Source of the DNA: Heptranchias perlo
Taxonomy: Eukaryota
DNA: 64,000 nucleotides
Direction: 5' to 3'
Assembly (NCBI RefSeq): GCF_035084215.1
Contig: NC_090325.1
Coordinates: 162,440,001-162,504,000, forward strand
The notes beneath the pieces are model-generated. The model saw only the letters and a list, made by a program, of their open reading frames with translations, made no database searches and was not told where the DNA came from. Made by a program: the position numbers and the translations under genes. Positions 21,284 to 62,079 of this stretch are shown here, one piece after another; within the stretch, counting starts at the first letter, position 1; every line of letters starts with the position of its first letter.

Positions 21284-21420
21284 CTCAGAACCTTTGCTCA
21301 CTGTACTGTCTCCAACTCTTCTCTGCAGATTTGTAAACGAGCCTTTGTTTTTCACTGCCATTTCTAAATCTCATGTGAATAGCAAAAGACTGAAAAATGC
21401 CGCCCAAGTCCCTCAACACG

Positions 21421-24400
21421 ATACACACTGCAACCACCTCCCTCACCACTAAACACAGTGCAACTACCCCCCTCACCACTAAACACACTGCAACCACCTC
21501 CCTCACCACCAGAATCACTGCAACCACCTCCCTCACCACTAAACACAGTGCAACCACCCCCCTCACCACCAGAATCACTGCAACCACCTCCCTCACCACC
21601 AGAATCACTGCAACCACCTTCCTCACCACTAAACACAGTGCAACTACCCCCATCACCACTAAACACAGTGCAACCACCTCCCTCACCACCAGAATTACTG
21701 CAACCACCTCCCTCACCACTAAACACACTGCAACCACCTCCCTCACCACTAAACACAGTGCAACCACCTCCCTCACCACTAAACACAGTGCAACCACCCC
21801 CCTCACCACTAAACACACTGCAACCACCTCCCTCACCACCAGAATCACTGCAACCACCTCCCTCACCACTAAACACACTGCAACCACCTCCCTCACGACT
21901 AAACACACTGCAACCACCTCCCTCACCACTAAACACACTGCAACCACCTCTCTCAACACCAGAATCACTGCAACCACCTCCCTCACCACTAAACACACTG
22001 CAACCACCTCCCTCACGACTAAACACACTGCAACCACCTCCCTCAACACCAGAATCACTGCAACCACCTCCCTCACCACTAAACACACTGCAACCACCTC
22101 CCTCACGACTAAACACACTGCAACCACCTCCCTCAACACCAGAATCACTGCAACCACCTCCCTCACCACTAAACACACTGCAACCACCTCCCTCACGACG
22201 AAACACACTGCAACCACCTCCCTCAACACCAGAATCACTGCAACCACCTCCCTCACCACTAAACACACTGCAACCACCTCCCTCACCAGTAAACACACTG
22301 CAACCACCTCCCTCACCACCAGAATCACTGCAACCACCTCCCTCACCACCAGAATCACTGCCACCACCTCCCTCACAACCAAACACACTGCAACCACCTC
22401 CCTCACCACCAGAATCACTGCAACCACCTCCCTCACCACCAAACACACTGCAACCACCTCCCTCACCACCAGACTCACTGCAACCACCTCCCTCACCACC
22501 AGAATCACTGCGACCACCTCCCTCACCACCAGAATCACTGCAACCACCTCCCTCACCACCAAACACACTGCAACCACCTCCCTCACCACCAAACACACTG
22601 CAACCACCTCCCTCACCACCAGACTCACTGCAACCACCTCCCTCACCACCAGAATCACTGCGACCACCTCCCTCACCACCAGACTCACTGCAACCACCTC
22701 CCTCACCACCAGACACACTGCAACCACCTCCCTCACCACTAAACACACTGCAACCACCTCCCTCACCATTAAACACACTGCAACCACCTCCCTCACCACC
22801 AGACTCACTGCGACCACCTCCCTCACCACCAGAATCACTGCAACCACCTCCCTCACAACCAAACACACTGCAACCACCTCCCTCACCACCAGAATCACTG
22901 CAACCACCTCCCTCACCACCAGACTCACTGCAACCACCTCCCTCACCACCAAACACACTGCAACCACCTCCCTCACCACTAAACACACTGCAACCACCTC
23001 CCTCACCATTAAACACACTGCAACCACCTCCCTCACCACTAAACACACTGCAACCACCTCCCTCACCACTAAACTCACTGCAACCACCTCCCTCACCACC
23101 AGAATCACTGCAACCACCTCCCTCACCATTAAACACACTGCAACCACCTCCCTCACCACGAAACAAACTGCAACCACCTCCCTCACCACCAGAATCACTG
23201 CGACCACCTCCCTCACCACCAGAATCACTGCAACCACCTCCCTCACCACCAGAATCACTGCGACCACCTCCCTCACCACCAGACTCACTGCAACCACCTC
23301 CCTCACCACCAGACTCACTGCAACCACCTCCCTCACCACCAGACTCACTGCAACCACCTCCCTCACCACCAGTCTCACTGCAACCACCTCCCTCACCACC
23401 AAACACACTGCAACCACCTCCCTCACCACCAGACTCACTGCAACCACCTCCCTCACAACCAAACACACTGCAACCACCTCCCTCACCACCAGAATCACTG
23501 CCACCACCTCCCTCACCACCAGACTCACTGCAACCACCTCCCTCACAACCAAACACACTGCAACCACCTCCCTCACCACCAGACTCACTGCAACCACCTC
23601 CCTCACCACTAAACACACTGCAACCACCTCCCTCACCACCAAACACACTGCAACCACCTCCCTCACCACCAGACTCACTGCAACCACCTCTCTCACCACC
23701 AAACACACTGCAACCACCTCCCTCACCACCAGACTCACTGCAACCACCTCCCTCACCACCAAACACACTGCAACCACCTCCCTCACCACCAGACTCACTG
23801 CAACCACCTCTCTCACCACCAAACACACTGCAACCACCTCCCTCACCACCAAACACACTGCAACCACCTCCCTCACCACCAGACTCACTGCAACCACCTC
23901 CCTCACCACCAAACACACTGCAACCACCTCCCTCACCACCAGAATCACTGCCACCACCTCCCTCACCACCAGACTCACTGCAACCACCTCCCTTACAACC
24001 AAACACACTGCAACCACCTCCCTCACCACCAGAATCACTGCCACCACCTCCCTCACCACCAGACTCACTGCAACCACCTCCCTCACCACCAGACTCACTG
24101 CAACCACCTCCCTCACCACCAGACTCACTGCAACCACCTCCCTCACCACCAGACTCACTGCAACCACCTCCCTCACAACCAAACACACTGCAACCACCTC
24201 CCTCACCACCAGAATCACTGCAACCACCTCCCTCACCACTAAACACACTGCAACCACCTCCCTCACCACCAGAATCACTGCAACCACCTCCCTCACAACT
24301 AAACAAACTGCAACCACCTCCCTCAACACAAAACACACTGCAACCACCTCCCTCACCACCAGAATCACTGCCACCACCTCCCTCACCACCAGAATCACTG

Positions 24401-26382
24401 CAACCACCTCCCTCACCACCAGACACACTGCAACCACCTCCCTCAACACCAGAATCACTGCGACCACCTCCCTCACCACCAGAATCACTGCTACCACCTC
24501 CCTCACCACCAGACTCACTGCAACCACCTCCCTCACCACCAGACACACTGCAACCACCTCCCTCACCACTAAACACACTGCAACCACCTCCCTCACCACC
24601 AGAATCACTGCGACCACCTCCCTCACCACCAAACACACTGCAACCACCTCCCTCACCACCAGACTCACTGCAACCACCTCCCTCACCACCAGACTCACTG
24701 CAACCACCTCCCTCACAACTAAACAAACTGCAACCACCTCCCTCAACACAAAACACAGTGCAACCACCTCCCTCACCACCAGACTCACTGCAACCACCTC
24801 CCTCACCACCAGAATCACTGCAACCACCTCCCTCACCACTAAACAAACTGCAACCACCTCCCTCAACACAAAACACACTGCAACCACCTCCCTCACCACT
24901 AAACACACTGCAACCACCTCCCTCACCACCAGACTCACTGCAACCACCTCCCTCACCACCAGAATCACTGCAACCACCTCCCTCACCACTAAACACAGTG
25001 CAACCACCCCCCCTCACCACTAAACACACTGCAACCACCTCCCTCACCACTAAACAAACTGCAACCACCCCCCTCACCACTAAACACACTGCAACCACCT
25101 CCCTCACCACCAGAATCACTGCAACCACCTCCCTCACCACTAAACACATTGCAACCACCTCCCTCACCACCAGAATCACTGCAACCACCCCCCCTCACCA
25201 CTAAACACACTGCAACCACCCCCCTCACCACTAAACACACTGCAACCACCTCCCTCACCACCAGACTCACTGCAACCACCTCCCTCACCACCAGAATCAC
25301 TGCAACCACCTCCCTCACAACTAAACAAACTGCAACCACCTCCCTCACCACCAGAATCACTGCAACCACCTCCCTCACCACCAGACTCACTGCTACCACC
25401 TCCCTCACCACCAGAATCACTGCGACCACCTCCCTCACCACCAGACACACTGCAACCACCTCCCTCACCACCAGACTCACTGCTACCACCTCCCTCACCA
25501 CCAGAATCACTGCAACCACCTCCCTCACCACCAGAATCACTGCAACCACCTCCCTCACCACCAGAATCACTGCAACCACCTCCCTCACCACCAAACACAC
25601 TGCAACCACCTCCCTCACCACCAGACTCACTGCAACCACCTCCCTCACCACTAAACACACTGCAACCACCTCCCTCACCACTAAACACACTGCAACCACC
25701 TCCCTCACCACCAGACTCACTGCAACCACCTCCCTCACCACCAGACTCACTGCAACCACCTCCCTCACCACCACTCACTGCAACCACCTCCCTCACCACC
25801 AGACTCACTGCAACCACCTCCCTCACCACCAAACACACTGCAACCACCTCCCTCACCACCAGACTCACTGCAACCACCTCCCTCACCACCAGACTCACTG
25901 CAACCACCTCCCTCACCACCAAACACACTGCAACCACCTCCCTCACCACCAGACTCACTGCAACCACCTCCCTCACCACCAGAATCACTGCGACCACCTC
26001 CCTCACCACCAGAATCACTGCCACCACCTCCCTCACCACTAAACACACTGCAACCACCTCCCTCACCACAAAACACACTGCAACCACCTCCCTCACCACT
26101 AAACACACTGCAACCACCTCCCTCACCACCAGAATCACTGCAACCACCTCCCTCACCACTAAACACACTGCAACCACCTCCCTCACCACCAGAATCACTG
26201 CGACCACCTCCCTCACCACGAAACACACTGCAACCACCTCCCTCACCACTAAACACACTGCAACCACCTCCCTCACCACTAAACACACTGCAACCACCTC
26301 CCTCACCACCAGACTCACTGCAACCACCCCCCTCACCACTAAACACACTGCAACCACCTCCCTCACCACTAAACACACTGCA
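21421..26382. repeat. 30-bp minisatellite, ~165 units (CACTGCAACCACCTCCCTCACCAC-[TAAACA|CAAACA|CAGAAT|CAGACT])
   Basis: Direct 30-bp periodicity; three small indels (~25010, ~25190, ~25773). Confidence 0.97.
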
Positions 26383-39126: not shown

Positions 39127-39193
39127 ATGATGAAGAGTAAACATATGCTGGGGCCACTAGCAGCAATTCTACTTTACACAGCTCTTGCAGCAG
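39127..39193 (+). CDS. JCHAIN: Immunoglobulin J chain, exon 1 (signal peptide MMKSKHMLGPLAAILLYTALAA)
   Basis: Basic N-terminus, hydrophobic core, ALA-A cleavage-type end; donor CAG|GTAAGG, phase 1, matches exon 2. Confidence 0.85.
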
Positions 39194-42122: not shown

Positions 42123-43179
42123 GGGCTCAATTTTGAAATGGTGGCATGGTGGCACAGTGGGGGGGAGGGTGGGGGTTGAGGGTGCGCATGGCAAACCCAA
42201 ATAAAAAAAACATACCTTTTCCGACGCAATCGCGATGTAATTGATGGTGATTAAAGTTATTTCTGAGTTTCGCGCCCGGCAGCCAGTCTGTGGCAACCCC
42301 AGAAGTCGGCAGGTTGGAGCCGGCTTCCGAACCCACTCGGGATTTTCGCAGCCCTCCCCCCCCCGCCCCCCTGCCCGCCCCCAACGCAACAGCAATTTGA
42401 TTTTAAAATTGAGCCCAAGGGATTTCAGTAAGGGTGATCAGGCAAAGAATGCAAGACTCTGGCAGGCTGGCTGCCGACAGGAGCTGCAATGCCGAGGAGG
42501 GGGGGAGGAGAGAAAGAGGAGAGAGAGATGTCATCCGGCGCTGGGAGAGTGGAGGGCGCTGAAGATCGGGGAGGAGAGGGGAAAATCGGGGGGGAGGGGG
42601 AGAGAGGAAGATCGGTGGGCAGAGTGGAAGATCAGGTGGGGAGAGGGGAAGATCAGAGGGAGATCGCGGGGGGAGAGGGAAAGATCGGAGAGGGACATTG
42701 GGGGGGGAGAGGAACATTGGAGAGGGAGACATCAGGGGCTTAGGAGGACTTCGAAGAGGGAGACTTCGGTCATCAGAGCAGGGTGGAAAGTTAGATTTAT
42801 TTTGTTTTTTAACTTTGTGCAATGGTTTTTTATTTAACTAATTTAGTTTATTTTTGCCTGATCCGGCCCTTCACAGGTATGAATCGGAAGCTGTCGGAAA
42901 GCCACCCAGGTAAGTTTAAAATCGTTTTAACTATCTACTATGTCAGAAAAAAAGTACCTTAAGTACCTCAATGAAGTATATTTTGTTCTTTAACTATCAT
43001 CCCGCCGGCTTTAATTGCCAGCGGGACGTCCAGATTTGTGAAGCGCACGCACACAGGCGCGTCTGTGGCAACCCCGGAAGTCGGCGGGTTGGAGCCGGCT
43101 TCCAAACCCGCTCGGGATTTTCGCCATTTTCGCACCCCCGCCCCCAACACACCCGCAATTTGATTTTAAAATTGAGCCC
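42123..43179. mobile_element. MITE with TIRs GGGCTCAATTTT / AAAATTGAGCCC (extra internal copy of the right end)
   Basis: 12-bp TIR at 42123-42134 and 43168-43179; second right TIR at 42406-42417. Confidence 0.8.
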
Positions 43180-47691: not shown

Positions 47692-47818
47692 CTGACTCTG
47701 AAAGCCACCTTCTAGTCGAATCGAAATGTAAGTGTTTGAAGGTGACATCCAGGATAGTCGTTACTGACACTCCTAATGGTGGACAACAGGAGCATCTCGT
47801 GAGAGATATAAAAATTGT
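47692..47818 (+). CDS. JCHAIN: Immunoglobulin J chain, exon 2 (ADSESHLLVESKCKCLKVTSRIVVTDTPNGGQQEHLVRDIKIV)
   Basis: Acceptor TCTTCACAG|, donor |GTAAGT; aligns to human LVDNKCKCARITSRII...VERNIRII. Confidence 0.95.
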
Positions 47819-50158: not shown

Positions 50159-51109
50159 ATGTCAGGACAGCCCAGCCCCGTGTTATGCTCTTCCTGCTCT
50201 ATGTGGGAAATCAGGGACCCTTCCGGTGTCCCTGACGACCATGTGTGCGGGAAATGTATCCAGCTGCAGCTACTGACAAACCGCATTGCGGCACTGGAGC
50301 TGCGGATAGATTCATTAAGGAGCATTCGCGATGCTGAGAACGTCGTGGATAGCACGTTTAGTGAGATGGTCACACCGCAGGTAAAGGTTGTACAGGCAGG
50401 AAGTAATTGGGTGACCACCAGGCAGAGTAAGAGGAGCAGGCAGGCAGTGCAGGGGTCCCCTGTGGCCGTCCCCCTCTCAAACAAATATACCGCTTTGGAT
50501 ATTGTTGAGGGGGATGACTTATCAGGGGAAAGCAGCAGCAGCCAACTTCCTGGCACCAGGGGTAGCTCTGCTGCACAGGCTGGGAGGAAAAAGAGTGGAA
50601 GAGCTATAGTGGTAGGGGATTCTATCGTAAGGGGAACAGACAGGCGTTTCTGTGGCCGTAAACGTGACTCCAGGATGGTTTGTTGCCTCCCTGGTGCCAG
50701 GGTCATGGATGTCACTGACTGGCTACAGGGCATTCTCAAGGGGGAGGGTGAGCAGGCAGAGGTCGTGATCCACATTGGGACCAACGACATAGGTAGGAAG
50801 GGAGATGAGGTCCTGCATCAAGAATTTAGGGAGCTAGGTAGCAGATTAAAGAGCAGGACCTCAAAGGTTGTAATCTCTGGATTACTCCCAGTGCCACGGG
50901 CTAGTGAGTATAGAAATAGGAGGATAGAACAGATGAATGCGTGGCTAAAGAGTTGGTGCAGGAGGGAGGGTTTCAGTTTCCTGGATCACTGGGCCTGCTT
51001 CTGGGGAAGGTGGGACTTGTACAAGTCGGACGGGTTGCACCTGATCCAGAGCGGGACAAATATCCTTGCGGGGAGGTTTGCTAACACTGTTGGGGGGGGT
51101 TTAAACTAA
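50159..51109 (+). CDS. CR1 ORF1p: zinc-finger/coiled coil plus SGNH esterase
   Basis: CSSC..CGKC, leucine-zipper-like segment, GDSIVRG, HIGTND, DGLHL; 316 aa uninterrupted. Confidence 0.92.
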   Translation: MSGQPSPVLCSSCSMWEIRDPSGVPDDHVCGKCIQLQLLTNRIAALELRIDSLRSIRDAENVVDSTFSEMVTPQVKVVQAGSNWVTTRQSKRSRQAVQGSPVAVPLSNKYTALDIVEGDDLSGESSSSQLPGTRGSSAAQAGRKKSGRAIVVGDSIVRGTDRRFCGRKRDSRMVCCLPGARVMDVTDWLQGILKGEGEQAEVVIHIGTNDIGRKGDEVLHQEFRELGSRLKSRTSKVVISGLLPVPRASEYRNRRIEQMNAWLKSWCRREGFSFLDHWACFWGRWDLYKSDGLHLIQSGTNILAGRFANTVGGGLN

Positions 51110-54021
51110 CTTGGCAGGGGGATGGGATACAGAGTGGAGCTACAATAGGGGGTGATGTGCAGCCAAATATAGAGAAAAAAACAAGTCAGCTTGGAAGACA
51201 GGGCAAATATGTGAGGGCAAGGCTGGATGGCATCTATTTTAATGCAAGGAGTCTTGCAAATAAGGTGGATGAACTGAAGGTGTTGATAAACACATGGGAG
51301 TATGACATTGTTGCTGTCACAGAGACATGGTTGAGGGAGGGACAAGACTGGCAGCTCAATATTCCGGGGTACAGAATCTTCAGGCGAGACAGAGGGGGAG
51401 GTATAAGAGGAGGGGGGGTCGCAATATTAATTAAAGAATCAATTACTGCCATAAGGAGGGATGATATATTAGCAGGTTCCTCGAATGAGGCCATATGGGT
51501 GGAGCTTAAAAACAAAAAGGGGGCAAGCACTTTGATGGGAGTGTACTATAGGCCCCCAAACAGTCAGGGGGAGATAGAGGAACAGATATGTAGGCAAATC
51601 TCAGAAAATTGTGCAAATAATAGGGTAATAATAGTGGGGGATTTCAACTTCCCCAATATTAACTGGGATACTCAGAGTGTAAAAGGCTTAGAGGGTACAA
51701 AATTCTTAACATGCATCCAGGAGAGCTTTTTGAGCCAGCATGTAGAAAGTCCTACAAGAGAGGGGGCGGTACTGGACCTAATTCTAGGGAATGTGGCCGG
51801 CCAAGTGGAAGAAGTGCTAGTAGGTGAGCACTTTGGTGATAGTGACCATAATTCGGTGAGATTTAAGGTGGTCATGGAAAAGGATAGGGAGGGGCCGGAA
51901 ATAAAGGTTCTAAATTGGGGGAAGGCCGATTTTAATAGGATAAGGCAGGATCTGGCCAAAATGGACTGGGATCAGCTGCTTGTAGGAAAATCCGCATCGG
52001 AGCAATGGGAGTCTTTCAGAAGGGAGATTGAGACCATACAATGGCAACATGTTCCCGTAAAGGTCAAGGGTGGTTCCAAGAACTCCAGGGAACCTTGGAT
52101 GTCAGGGGATATACGAGAATGGATTAGGAAAAAAAGGAGGGCTTTTGGCAGATACAAAAGGCTAAAGACGGAGGAAGCCCTAGAGGAGTACAAAAAGTGC
52201 AGGGGGATACTTAAAAAGGAAATTAGGAGATCAAGGAGGGGCCATGAAATAACACTGGCGAGCAAAATAAAGGAAAATCCTAAGATGTTTTATAAGTATA
52301 TTAAGGGTAAGAGGATGACTAGGGAAAAAATAGGGCCCATTAGGGACAAAAATGGCAATCTGTGTGTGGAGCCGGCAGATGTAGGAGGGGTTCTAAATGA
52401 ATTTTTTACATCTGTTTTCACTATGGAGAAGGACGACGTAGACATAGAAATACGGCAGGGGGACTGTGATATACTCGAACATATTAACATCGAGCGGGAG
52501 GAGGTATTGGCGGTTTTAGCAGGCCTAAAAATGGATAAATCCCCAGGCCCGGACGAAATGTATCCCAGGCTACTGTGTGAGGCAAAGGAGGAGATTGCAG
52601 GGGCTCTGACACATATATTCAGAACCTCTCTGGCCACAGGGGATGTGCCAGAGGACTGGAGAACCGCTAATGTAGTACCATTATTCAAGAAGGGGAGTAG
52701 GGAAAAACCGGGGAACTACAGGCCAGTGAGCCTAACATCAGTGGTAGGAAAATTATTGGAAAAAATTCTGAAGGACAAAATTAGTCTCCACTTGGAGAAG
52801 CAAGGATTAATCAGGGATCGTCAACATGGCTTTGTCAAGGGAAGATCATGTCTGACTAATTTGATTGAATTTTTTGAGGGGGTGACTAGGCGTGTGGATG
52901 AGGGTAACGCAGTGGATGTGGTATACATGGATTTCAGTAAGGCCTTCGATAAAGTCCCCCACAGGAGACTGGTCAAGAAGCTACGAGCCCATGGAATCCA
53001 AGGTGCCTTGGCACTTTGGATACAAAACTGGCTTAGTGGCAGAAGGCAGAGGGTGATGGTCGAAGGTTGTTTTTGTGACTGGAAGCCTGTGGCCAGTGGG
53101 GTACCACAGGGATCGGTGCTGGGTCCCTTGCTGTTTGTGGTCTACATTAATGACTTGGATATGAATGTAAAAGGTATGATCAGTAAGTTCGCTGATGATA
53201 CAAAAATTGGTAGGGTGGTAAATAGCGAGGAGGATAGCCTCAGTCTGCAGGACGATATAGATGGGTTGGTCAGATGGGCGGAACAGTGGCAAATGGAATT
53301 TAACCCGGAAAAGTGCGAGGTGATGCACTTTGGAGGGACTAACAAGGCAAGGGAATACACAATGAATGGGAGGACCCTAGGCAAGACAGAGGGTCAGAGG
53401 GATCTTGGTGTGCAAGTTCACAGATCCCTGAAGGCGGCGGAACAGGTAGATAAGGTGGTAAAGAAGGCATATGGGATACTTGCCTTTATTAGCCGAGGCA
53501 TAGAATATAAGAGCAAGGAGGTTATGATGGAGCTGTATAAAACACTGGTTAGGACACAGCTGGAGTACTGTGTGCAGTTCTGGTCGCCACACTACAGGAA
53601 GGATGTGATCGCTTTGGAGAGGGTGCAGAGGAGATTCACCAGGATGTTACCAGGGCTGGAGCGCTTCAGCTATGAAGAGAGACTGGGAAGATTGGGTTTG
53701 TTTTCCTTGGAGCAGAGGAGGCTGAGGGGGGACATGATTGAGGTGTACAAAATTATGAGGGGCACAGATAGGATGGATACTAAGGAGCTTTTTCCCTTCG
53801 TTGAGGGTTCTATAACAAGGGGACATAGATTCAAGGTAAAAGGCGGGAGGTTTAGAGGGGATTTGAGAAAGAACTTTTTCACCCAGAGGGTGGTTGGAGT
53901 CTGGAACTCACTGCCTGAAAGGGTTGTGGAGGCAGGAACCCTCACAACATTCAAGAAGCATTTGGATGAGCACTTGAAATGCCATAGCATACAAGGCTAC
54001 GGACCAAATGCTGGAATATGA
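51100..54021 (+). CDS. CR1 ORF2p: APE endonuclease plus reverse transcriptase (no in-frame ATG before the EN catalytic residues)
   Basis: YFNARS, VTETW, YYRPP, GDFN, SDHN, NYRPVSLTS, PQGSVLGP, FADD; frame open from 51085; ends GNAGI-type NAGI* two codons short of the usual WD*. Confidence 0.92.
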   Translation, partial: FKLTWQGDGIQSGATIGGDVQPNIEKKTSQLGRQGKYVRARLDGIYFNARSLANKVDELKVLINTWEYDIVAVTETWLREGQDWQLNIPGYRIFRRDRGGGIRGGGVAILIKESITAIRRDDILAGSSNEAIWVELKNKKGASTLMGVYYRPPNSQGEIEEQICRQISENCANNRVIIVGDFNFPNINWDTQSVKGLEGTKFLTCIQESFLSQHVESPTREGAVLDLILGNVAGQVEEVLVGEHFGDSDHNSVRFKVVMEKDREGPEIKVLNWGKADFNRIRQDLAKMDWDQLLVGKSASEQWESFRREIETIQWQHVPVKVKGGSKNSREPWMSGDIREWIRKKRRAFGRYKRLKTEEALEEYKKCRGILKKEIRRSRRGHEITLASKIKENPKMFYKYIKGKRMTREKIGPIRDKNGNLCVEPADVGGVLNEFFTSVFTMEKDDVDIEIRQGDCDILEHINIEREEVLAVLAGLKMDKSPGPDEMYPRLLCEAKEEIAGALTHIFRTSLATGDVPEDWRTANVVPLFKKGSREKPGNYRPVSLTSVVGKLLEKILKDKISLHLEKQGLIRDRQHGFVKGRSCLTNLIEFFEGVTRRVDEGNAVDVVYMDFSKAFDKVPHRRLVKKLRAHGIQGALALWIQNWLSGRRQRVMVEGCFCDWKPVASGVPQGSVLGPLLFVVYINDLDMNVKGMISKFADDTKIGRVVNSEEDSLSLQDDIDGLVRWAEQWQMEFNPEKCEVMHFGGTNKAREYTMNGRTLGKTEGQRDLGVQVHRSLKAAEQVDKVVKKAYGILAFISRGIEYKSKEVMMELYKTLVRTQLEYCVQFWSPHYRKDVIALERVQRRFTRMLPGLERFSYEERLGRLGLFSLEQRRLRGDMIEVYKIMRGTDRMDTKELFPFVEGSITRGHRFKVKGGRFRGDLRKNFFTQRVVGVWNSLPERVVEAGTLTTFKKHLDEHLKCHSIQGYGPNAGI

Positions 54022-57044: not shown

Positions 57045-57125
57045 AGTTCCCATGAGAAGCAGAGAGAACATTTCAGATCCAACCTCCCCTCTTCGGACCA
57101 AGTTTGTCTACAAAATTTCAGATTT
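57045..57125 (+). CDS. JCHAIN: Immunoglobulin J chain, exon 3 (VPMRSRENISDPTSPLRTKFVYKISDF)
   Basis: 81 nt, phase 2/2, TTTTATTACAG| ... |GTATGA; contains the hallmark RENISDPTSPLRT.FVY motif. Confidence 0.98.
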
Positions 57126-60920: not shown

Positions 60921-61179
60921 CTGCAAGAATTGCACCCAAAAGGCAACCTCTTCGCTAGAACCTCAGTGCAAACCTCAACCTCCACCAGAAGATACATGTT
61001 ACGCCTATGACAACAGAAAATGCCTGTACCATAAAATCAACTTAGGAGATGGCAAGCAAGTGGATACTCTCCTGAATCCTGAATGCCTCAATCATAAAAA
61101 TGACCTCTGGTTTCCAAAACCTACGCTGTCACCTGTTGAAACAACATATGATTCGGCATCTATGTCAGATGCTCCGTAG
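60921..61179 (+). CDS. JCHAIN: Immunoglobulin J chain, exon 4 (CKNC...QC...EDTCYAYDNRKC...LNPEC plus 30-aa tail)
   Basis: Acceptor TTTTGTTGCAG|, phase 2 in frame with exon 3; aligns to human CKKC...ETCYTYDRNKC...LTPDAC; stop TAG at 61177-61179. Confidence 0.95.
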
Positions 61180-61308
61180 ATATGCTCTAAAGACCATAAT
61201 TGTACCTGTATCTTTATGTCTTTTTAGCTTTGGCATTTAAGGCTTGCAGATCTTTTGCCTTCTTCAAGCAGACTATAAATTGCTTCATAGCTTCAACTCT
61301 TGTTTCGT

Positions 61309-61314
61309 AATAAA
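61309..61314 (+). terminator. Probable JCHAIN polyadenylation signal AATAAA
   Basis: 130 nt after the stop, followed by T/GT-rich sequence. Confidence 0.6.
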
Positions 61315-62079
61315 CACTTTTCTCTATATTATGGTGTAACTTGTAAATGTGTCACAGTTTGCTTCACTTCATGGTGATAAACAAAATGGAGACAACGGAA
61401 AAACATGGCGTGCTAGCACTCAATACCTGTTTTGTACAAATGCACAAACTGGAACTGTTAAAATATATAAAAACACAGGAAAGCGTAGGATAGTAAAGAC
61501 TATTTAGTCCATCAAGCCAGTTTCCTCCACTGACCATTTACAATCCGTTCTATCATGAATATCCAACCCATTTAAACTGCTTAATGAGGGGTCCTGCATA
61601 TTTTCTCCTTCCTCTCTCCAAACGTAATTCAAGCAAAACTCCAAAACATCTATTCAACTTTACATCCTACATTATGCACCTTAGCATGACATCAGCATGG
61701 ACCTAGCAGGCCAACACCACTATGTTCCTCACAGCAATAAATTTACTCAAGTTGCATTTATCCTTAGAACTCTCAATCCTATTTATAAACAGGATGAAGG
61801 TGGAGAGAGATGTAACAAAACAGAAGGGCTTAGGAAGAGAATTCAGGAGTGCAGAGCCATGATGCCTGAAGATGATACAGGGAAAGAAGGGGAGGACACA
61901 CAGTAGGTCAGCGTCAGAAAAACAGAGGTCACAAGCTGAGACCTAGGGCTAGATGAGGTTACAATGGTAGGGTAGGGCAAGGCCAAGAAGGGATTTATAA
62001 AGAACATAGAGGTTTTTTAAATCAATGCATTAGGGACAGGGAGCCAATGGTGATCAGCACAGACAGGGGTGATAGTTAC

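What the first reader, a model, noticed from the sequence alone, without database searches (positions are those of the whole stretch)
61084..61179. J chain has a 30-residue C-terminal extension where mammals stop 3 residues after the last Cys
Seen: after the final Cys (61084-61086) the frame continues LNHKNDLWFPKPTLSPVETTYDSASMSDAP. The codon at the position of the mammalian stop (C-Y-P-D-*) is AAA (61096-61098), one change from TAA. Known: the mammalian J-chain C-terminus contacts pIgR/secretory component, and no clear pIgR is recognised in cartilaginous fish. Inference: this Pro/Ser/Thr-rich tail is either a lineage-specific stop loss tolerated without pIgR, or an ancestral module (O-glycosylation, Tyr sulfation, a different transport receptor) of a pIgR-independent secretory IgM system.
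Basis: partly seen in the sequence, partly recalled or inferred. Interest (0 to 1): 0.7.

Follow-up and report, generated by a model that had tools for sequence, protein, structure and literature searches.

The report
Ancient conserved tail on shark J-chain
The antibody-joining J chain of this shark carries a real 30-residue tail, ending in a motif shared by most sharks and rays and by a chimaera but not found in the bony vertebrates sampled, which likely serves as an extra docking strap on the IgM pentamer rather than being a tolerated accident.

Summary
The tail is real: DNA and spliced RNA contigs read it without a difference. It is not a recent stop loss. 18 of 23 cartilaginous-fish species end in SDAP, including the chimaera Callorhinchus; 0 of 109 other J chains and the coelacanth do not. 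The last 19 residues hold 8 of the 40 invariant positions (PTxxP...D....SDAP-COOH) and keep a fixed length in elasmobranchs, while the spacer in front varies from 13 to 40 residues. Hairpin 3, which binds Fc and pIgR in mammals, is intact here (all eight Cys) but decayed in galeomorph sharks and absent in the chimaera, both of which keep the tail. Four skates and one electric ray lack the tail. AAA at 61096 is uninformative: four other organisms have G there. Tyr sulfation and tailpiece mimicry are not supported; codon dN/dS is inconclusive. Best reading: a tethered C-terminal docking motif, probably O-glycosylated at Thr171, likely binding the IgM core (0.4); no binding was tested. Papers seen call this C-terminus 'unique' or 'poorly conserved' and do not describe the motif; three key papers were not read.

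The parts
39127..39193 (+). JCHAIN exon 1 coding part (signal peptide; ATG at 39127 or 39130), phase-1 donor
   Evidence: scan; matches N-terminus of P0001
42877..42909 (+). 33-nt extra exon in the database model P0001, inside a high-copy repeat; likely a minor exonised-repeat isoform
   Evidence: absent from all other J chains aligned; no read test
47692..47818 (+). JCHAIN exon 2 (127 nt) with the CKC motif (Cys1, Cys2)
   Evidence: length equals the usual chondrichthyan exon 2
57045..57125 (+). JCHAIN exon 3 (81 nt) with the N-glycan sequon NIS
   Evidence: its end is the loose end at 60921 in RNA-type contigs
60921..61086 (+). exon 4 core: Cys3 to Cys8, including hairpin 3 (Cys137-Cys158 of P0001)
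   Evidence: Pfam PF15097 match runs to residue 158
61087..61113 (+). fast-evolving linker LNHKNDLWF; holds the AAA codon at 61096
   Evidence: mean identity 0.20, 0 of 9 invariant; site rate 2.14
61114..61176 (+). conserved distal tail; PTxxP at 61120-61134, Asp at 61150, SDAP at 61165-61176
   Evidence: 10 of 21 invariant in 11 elasmobranchs; 8 invariant in 18 species with the chimaera
61177..61179 (+). stop codon TAG directly after the terminal Pro
61309..61314 (+). AATAAA poly(A) signal; RNA-type cover ends by about 61293

Best explanation
The tail is a conserved C-terminal short motif (PTxxP...D..[MIF]SDAP-COOH) on a variable linker, shared by sharks, rays and a chimaera, that likely docks back onto the IgM pentamer core as an extra non-covalent strap, with Thr171 likely O-glycosylated. 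Shown: presence, splicing, conservation, fixed distance to the C-terminus, variable spacer, survival after loss of hairpin 3, loss in skates. Inferred: that it binds anything, that the partner is IgM, that it is glycosylated, and that it cushions the loss of hairpin 3 or of one heavy-chain disulfide. Confidence that the tail is under long-term selection is about 0.9; the figure below is for the whole mechanism.
For: 18 of 23 chondrichthyan species end in SDAP; PTxxP-to-end is 19 residues in all 17 tail-bearing elasmobranchs and 17 in the chimaera, while the spacer from Cys6 is 13-40. SDAP is one of only two invariant 4-residue runs in the 18-species alignment. Distal tail identity 0.66 against 0.65 for exon 2, 0.27 for hairpin 3 and 0.20 for the linker in the same exon. 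J chain is disordered alone and folds on IgM (PMC11729874); its loops and hairpins act as lassos on Fc (10.1101/2020.02.11.943233); nurse shark J chain occurs only in pentameric IgM (PMC5192425). All 13 species lacking Cys2 or Cys3 keep the tail, and all 5 without the tail keep both Cys. The IgM tailpiece of this genome aligns without gaps to the human one, so a slowly changing partner exists.
Against: Four skates lack both hairpin 3 and the tail, and Narcine lacks the distal tail, so it is dispensable. The Cys/tail pattern rests on about three and two independent events. Xenopus laevis and Bombina lack Cys3 and have no tail, and hairpin 3 is not needed for mammalian pentamers in vitro, so no compensation is required. 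Codon counts disagree: 1 replacement and 3 silent changes in X9, 3 and 1 in X13. The mean site rate of the whole distal tail is only average (0.99; last nine residues 0.61). The two monomer models give the tail low confidence and disagree (helix, pLDDT 45-49; strand, block pLDDT 59).
Confidence: 0.4

Rival explanations
1. The tail is a short mucin-like, O-glycosylated cap that shields the IgM centre or slows proteolysis of J chain, and binds no protein specifically.
For: Both S/T residues invariant in 18 species have an invariant Pro at +3 (T171xxP174, S185xxP188); 2819 of 200000 random deals give this, a post hoc test. Pro at +3 and at -1 favour GalNAc-T activity (10.1101/2020.06.25.171371, passages). 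8-12 of the last 21 residues are P, S or T. Low model confidence fits disorder.
Against: Glycosylation alone would not need invariant Asp-Ala or a fixed distance to the C-terminus (inference). The full T/S-P-x-P sequon is not met at +1. No glycan was observed.
Confidence: 0.25
2. The free SDAP terminus is a ligand for a receptor or ER factor of cartilaginous fishes (transport, clearance or quality control), taking the place where pIgR binds in tetrapods.
For: An invariant end directly before the stop is typical of pocket-bound C-terminal ligands (general knowledge). The tail starts where pIgR contacts R105, A132, Y134 and D136 lie in mammals, and these read N, gap, L, H here. ERp44 polices J chain in mammals.
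Against: No candidate partner was found. Nurse shark J chain is low in the spiral valve, and reviews regard it as probably not involved in secretion. Skates do without the tail.
Confidence: 0.2
3. The tail mimics a heavy-chain secretory tailpiece and adds an eleventh strand to the tailpiece sandwich.
For: It begins KPTL like the human tailpiece shown; the chimaera model puts a strand at 139-143.
Against: A profile of 11 tails scores the shark IgM tailpiece no better than shuffles (1253 of 3000 reach it) or background 22-mers (553 of 1473). No penultimate Cys, no N-glycan sequon; no PDB match for the tail.
Confidence: 0.07
4. Neutral read-through after a stop loss, tolerated because there is no pIgR.
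For: AAA, and the GAA of relatives, are one change from TAA; X13 shows no deficit of replacements; the linker evolves fast; skates lost the tail.
Against: The motif is shared with the chimaera, whose lineage split over 400 million years ago (date recalled), while the neighbouring hairpin 3 decayed or vanished. A human J chain with a C-terminal His tag is part of a secretory IgA structure (6LX3), so a short extension is not barred by pIgR.
Confidence: 0.05
5. Assembly error at 61096.
For: None beyond the codon's closeness to TAA.
Against: No differences in DNA or spliced RNA-type contigs; the tail is open in four other organisms and 17 other species.
Confidence: 0.01

Closest known systems
Mammalian J chain (JCHAIN, Pfam PF15097; PDB 6KXS, 6LX3)
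   Same: Exon phases and sizes, CxC motif, NIS sequon, all eight Cys including hairpin 3; Foldseek's 15 hits at E<=0.001 are all J chains.
   Different: About 27 extra C-terminal residues; pIgR-contact positions changed; shorter Cys4-Cys5 loop; near-neutral pI 7.0 against 4.8 for a whale J chain.
Nurse shark J chain (AAO14897; Hohman 2003, not read)
   Same: Ends in the same motif (P0166), so the tail sequence has long been in databases.
   Different: It lacks Cys2 and Cys8 and has a decayed hairpin 3. That likely explains why reviews call the shark C-terminus poorly conserved; the window's protein shows the tail is appended behind a complete mammalian-type end.
Elephant shark (Callorhinchus milii) J chain (NP_001279351)
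   Same: PTxxP and terminal MSDAP.
   Different: No hairpin 3, no Cys3, Cys7 or Cys8; spacer of 13 residues.
Ig secretory tailpiece (IgM, IgA)
   Same: A terminal extension of about 20 residues starting KP[TS].
   Different: Similarity not above chance; no Cys, no N-glycan sequon.
O-glycosylated C-terminal extensions of chemokines such as mouse CCL2 and XCL1 (recalled, not tested)
   Same: A P/S/T-rich tail on a chemokine-derived protein.
   Different: No homology tested; the linked shark CXCL genes have last coding exons of mostly 16-46 nt.

Membership tests
JCHAIN | Pfam PF15097 above cut-off | tested here: met
   109.7 bits against 27, residues 36-158
JCHAIN | four exons, phases 1-2-2, CxC in exon 2 | tested here: met
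   the database model adds a repeat-derived 33-nt exon
JCHAIN | linked to a CXCL cluster | tested here: met
   three PF00048 matches 0.5-0.7 Mb upstream, same contig and strand; single J-chain exon 4 in the genome
JCHAIN | eight Cys and the NIS sequon | tested here: met
JCHAIN | incorporated into pentameric IgM | not testable with these tools
   reported for nurse shark (PMC5192425 passage)
tetrapod-type, pIgR-binding J chain | R105, A/S132, Y134, D136 and a terminus 2-3 residues after Cys8 | tested here: not met
   N, gap, L, H and 30 further residues
Ig secretory tailpiece | sequence similarity, N-x-S sequon, penultimate Cys | tested here: not met
mucin-type O-glycosylated segment | conserved S/T with Pro at +3 and -1 | tested here: inconclusive
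   P-T-x-x-P invariant in 18 species; Pro at +1 absent; post hoc 1.4%
mucin-type O-glycosylated segment | glycan present | not testable with these tools
   needs mass spectrometry
sulfotyrosine motif | conserved Tyr among acidic residues | tested here: not met
   Tyr at column 179 in 2 of 11 species

The most novel reading that the evidence does not exclude
The original J chain had two C-terminal modules: hairpin 3 with its disulfide, already present before pIgR, and behind it a terminal SDAP docking motif for a partner not yet known. Cartilaginous fishes kept the motif for over 400 million years while repeatedly discarding the hairpin. The bony-vertebrate line removed the motif and retooled the exposed end into the pIgR-binding site.
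Probability: 0.25. Interest if true: 0.78.

Novelty: new variant of a known kind. Interest (0 to 1): 0.52.

Why it matters
The field describes the shark J-chain C-terminus as divergent and uses that to argue for a polymerisation-only role. The comparison here shows two separable things: a mammalian-type hairpin 3 with all eight Cys in 6 of 23 species, which implies the hairpin predates pIgR (inference), and a separate motif conserved from chimaera to rays. This gives a defined 19-residue bait and natural deletion lineages (skates) for asking what J chain did before mucosal transport, and points to this species or the sawfish, not the nurse shark, as the better structural model of the early J chain.

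Tried and rejected
Codon dN/dS from contig differences: counts too small and contradictory; 13 coding differences used for X9 (18 of 23 differences were listed) and 28 of 32 for X13; X15 and X20 left out because their rows were cut. Tailpiece mimicry: not above shuffles. Tail alone against PDB, Pfam and the ESM Atlas: no usable hit; the 50%-cluster search gave 26 hits, none matching the tail alone. Source of the tail in the own genome: the motif pattern found the gene plus one other match, against two control matches; exon 4 is single-copy. Monomer folds: tail unresolved. Complex prediction of tail with IgM Cmu4-tailpiece and J core was not available, so binding is untested. No run was on record as RNA; RNA status of X5-X7 is the tool's guess, supported by the splice junction. 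The tree was used only for site rates; its placing of the chimaera is not trusted. Absence of pIgR from this genome was not tested. No lungfish J chain was in hand. Narcine's truncation rests on one genome model and could be an error. Earlier-findings look-ups returned nothing.

Full report
Observation. The frame after Cys 61084-61086 reads LNHKNDLWFPKPTLSPVETTYDSASMSDAP and stops at TAG 61177-61179. It is the end of exon 4 of a JCHAIN gene with exon 1 at 39127-39193, exon 2 at 47692-47818, exon 3 at 57045-57125 and exon 4 from 60921. A database protein, P0001, named J chain-like of Heptranchias perlo, is identical over exon 4; residue numbers below follow it. One DNA contig and two spliced RNA-type contigs cover the tail without a difference, and three runs show the exon 3 end joined at 60921 (one sample). 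An assembly error is excluded. Exon 4 is single-copy and chemokine-family exons lie 0.5-0.7 Mb upstream, as described for shark jchain in PMC10801876.

The AAA codon. 18 of 61 sense codons and 8 of 30 tail codons are one change from a stop. Four other organisms have G at 61096, and a one-residue gap before Cys8 makes the register uncertain. GAA is also one change from TAA, so an ancient read-through is not excluded, but this codon cannot show it.

Distribution. Of 23 chondrichthyan species in hand, 18 end in SDAP: this species, a sawshark, four batoids, 11 galeomorph sharks and the chimaera Callorhinchus. Four skates stop 5 residues after Cys6, and Narcine ends inside the tail. None of 109 non-chondrichthyan J chains held ends in SDAP; 104 of them end 2-3 residues after the last Cys. 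The coelacanth has no tail. Lungfish was not seen. The tail therefore predates the chimaera-elasmobranch split (over 400 million years, date recalled). Gain in cartilaginous fishes and loss in bony vertebrates cannot be told apart, since jawless fishes have no J chain.

Anatomy. The tail has two parts. The first nine residues are a fast linker (identity 0.20, 0 of 9 invariant). The last 21 have identity 0.66, the same as the exon 2 core (0.65), with 10 of 21 invariant in 11 elasmobranchs (Narcine and the skate left out as truncated). With the chimaera, P170, T171, P174, D180, S185, D186, A187 and P188 remain: 8 of 40 invariant positions in 18 species. SDAP is one of two invariant 4-residue runs. 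PTxxP lies 19 residues from the end in all 17 elasmobranchs and 17 in the chimaera, whereas the spacer from Cys6 varies from 13 to 40. Against strong claims: the mean site rate of the distal 21 is average (0.99; last nine 0.61; hairpin 3 1.45; linker 2.14), and codon counts from two organisms disagree (1 replacement and 3 silent; 3 and 1).

Hairpin 3. This protein has all eight mammalian Cys, as do 6 of the 23 species; 7 keep both hairpin-3 Cys. The Pfam model matches through Cys158. Galeomorph sharks, including the nurse shark on which the literature rests, lack Cys2 and Cys8 and have a decayed hairpin; the chimaera has none. Both keep the tail. So the tail is a module appended behind a mammalian-type end and maintained independently of it. 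The positions that contact pIgR in mammals (R105, N106, A132, Y134, D136) read N, R, gap, L, H. Hairpin 3 is dispensable for pentamer formation in vitro (PMC11729874), which fits its repeated loss.

Mechanism. A fixed-length, invariant terminus on a free-length linker is the pattern of a tethered short motif (inference). I rank IgM itself as the likeliest partner (0.4): J chain folds only on IgM, its other loops strap onto Fc, it occurs only in pentameric IgM in the nurse shark, and all 13 species missing a heavy-chain-linking Cys keep the tail while all 5 without the tail keep both. That last pattern rests on few events, and two frogs lack Cys3 without a tail. The glycan reading (0.25) draws on both invariant S/T having Pro at +3 (2819 of 200000 random deals, post hoc; preference) and may hold together with docking. 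A receptor or ER ligand (0.2) has no candidate. Tailpiece mimicry is not above chance. Tyr sulfation fails on conservation. Monomer models leave the tail unresolved.

Literature. PMC10801876 (whole text; jchain rows and part 2 of supplement 1; term search of all four supplements) says the elasmobranch C-terminal region 'is unique' and lists exon 4 lengths of 94-256 nt without describing a motif. PMC4279169 (passages) speaks of poor conservation. Passages only were seen of PMC3743840, PMC10663602, PMC7956327, PMC6795676, PMC7916673, PMC5192425, 10.1101/2020.06.25.171371 and 10.1101/2020.02.11.943233; of PMC11729874, passages and the Discussion. Searches listed no paper on a conserved chondrichthyan tail or a shark IgM-J structure. 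Hohman 2003 was not read; Castro and Flajnik 2014 and Flowers 2021 were not held. Their alignments may already show the motif, and figures of the papers read were not visible. The nurse shark and chimaera sequences carrying the tail are long-standing database records.

Verdict. A real, transcribed, ancient feature of a known protein. The tail's existence is implicit in databases and the odd C-terminus has been remarked on; its conserved two-part anatomy, its independence from hairpin 3 and the eight-Cys state in basal sharks and rays were not found described in what I could read. New variant of a known kind; interest 0.52.

Noticed in passing
window 42877-42909: The database model has a 33-nt extra exon after the signal peptide, lying in a repeat with 3059 first-look candidates in the genome; likely a minor exonised isoform. 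Not tested on reads.
   Followed up: partly
P0012, P0013, P0161, P0164 (skates): Skate J chains are 122 aa and stop 5 residues after Cys6, lacking hairpin 3 and tail; Amblyraja has several gene copies.
   Followed up: partly
P0005 (Narcine): Keeps all eight Cys but leaves the tail motif after PK and ends in six residues; real frameshift or model error not determined.
   Followed up: no
P0002, P0146 and runs X13, X15 (loose ends): Cys3 is Leu in the sawshark, the chimaera and two unnamed organisms, whereas galeomorph sharks lose Cys2 instead: either heavy-chain link can go, but not both in the 23 species seen.
   Followed up: partly
L030-L032: An Ig heavy-chain last exon whose secretory tail is shorter than IgM's and has no Cys; isotype not determined, possibly IgW.
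   Followed up: no
window 21409-26382 and 29668-30653: Arrays of a 30-bp tandem repeat (about 166 and 33 copies) that open long frames on both strands.
   Followed up: partly
window 51085-54021, 27460-29463, 33523-34716: LINE-type reverse transcriptase frames; the one in JCHAIN intron 2 is 978 codons with an endonuclease domain.
   Followed up: partly
window 61180-61322: The 3' UTR aligns across three other organisms with few changes, so slow DNA evolution alone should be allowed for when judging conservation.
   Followed up: no
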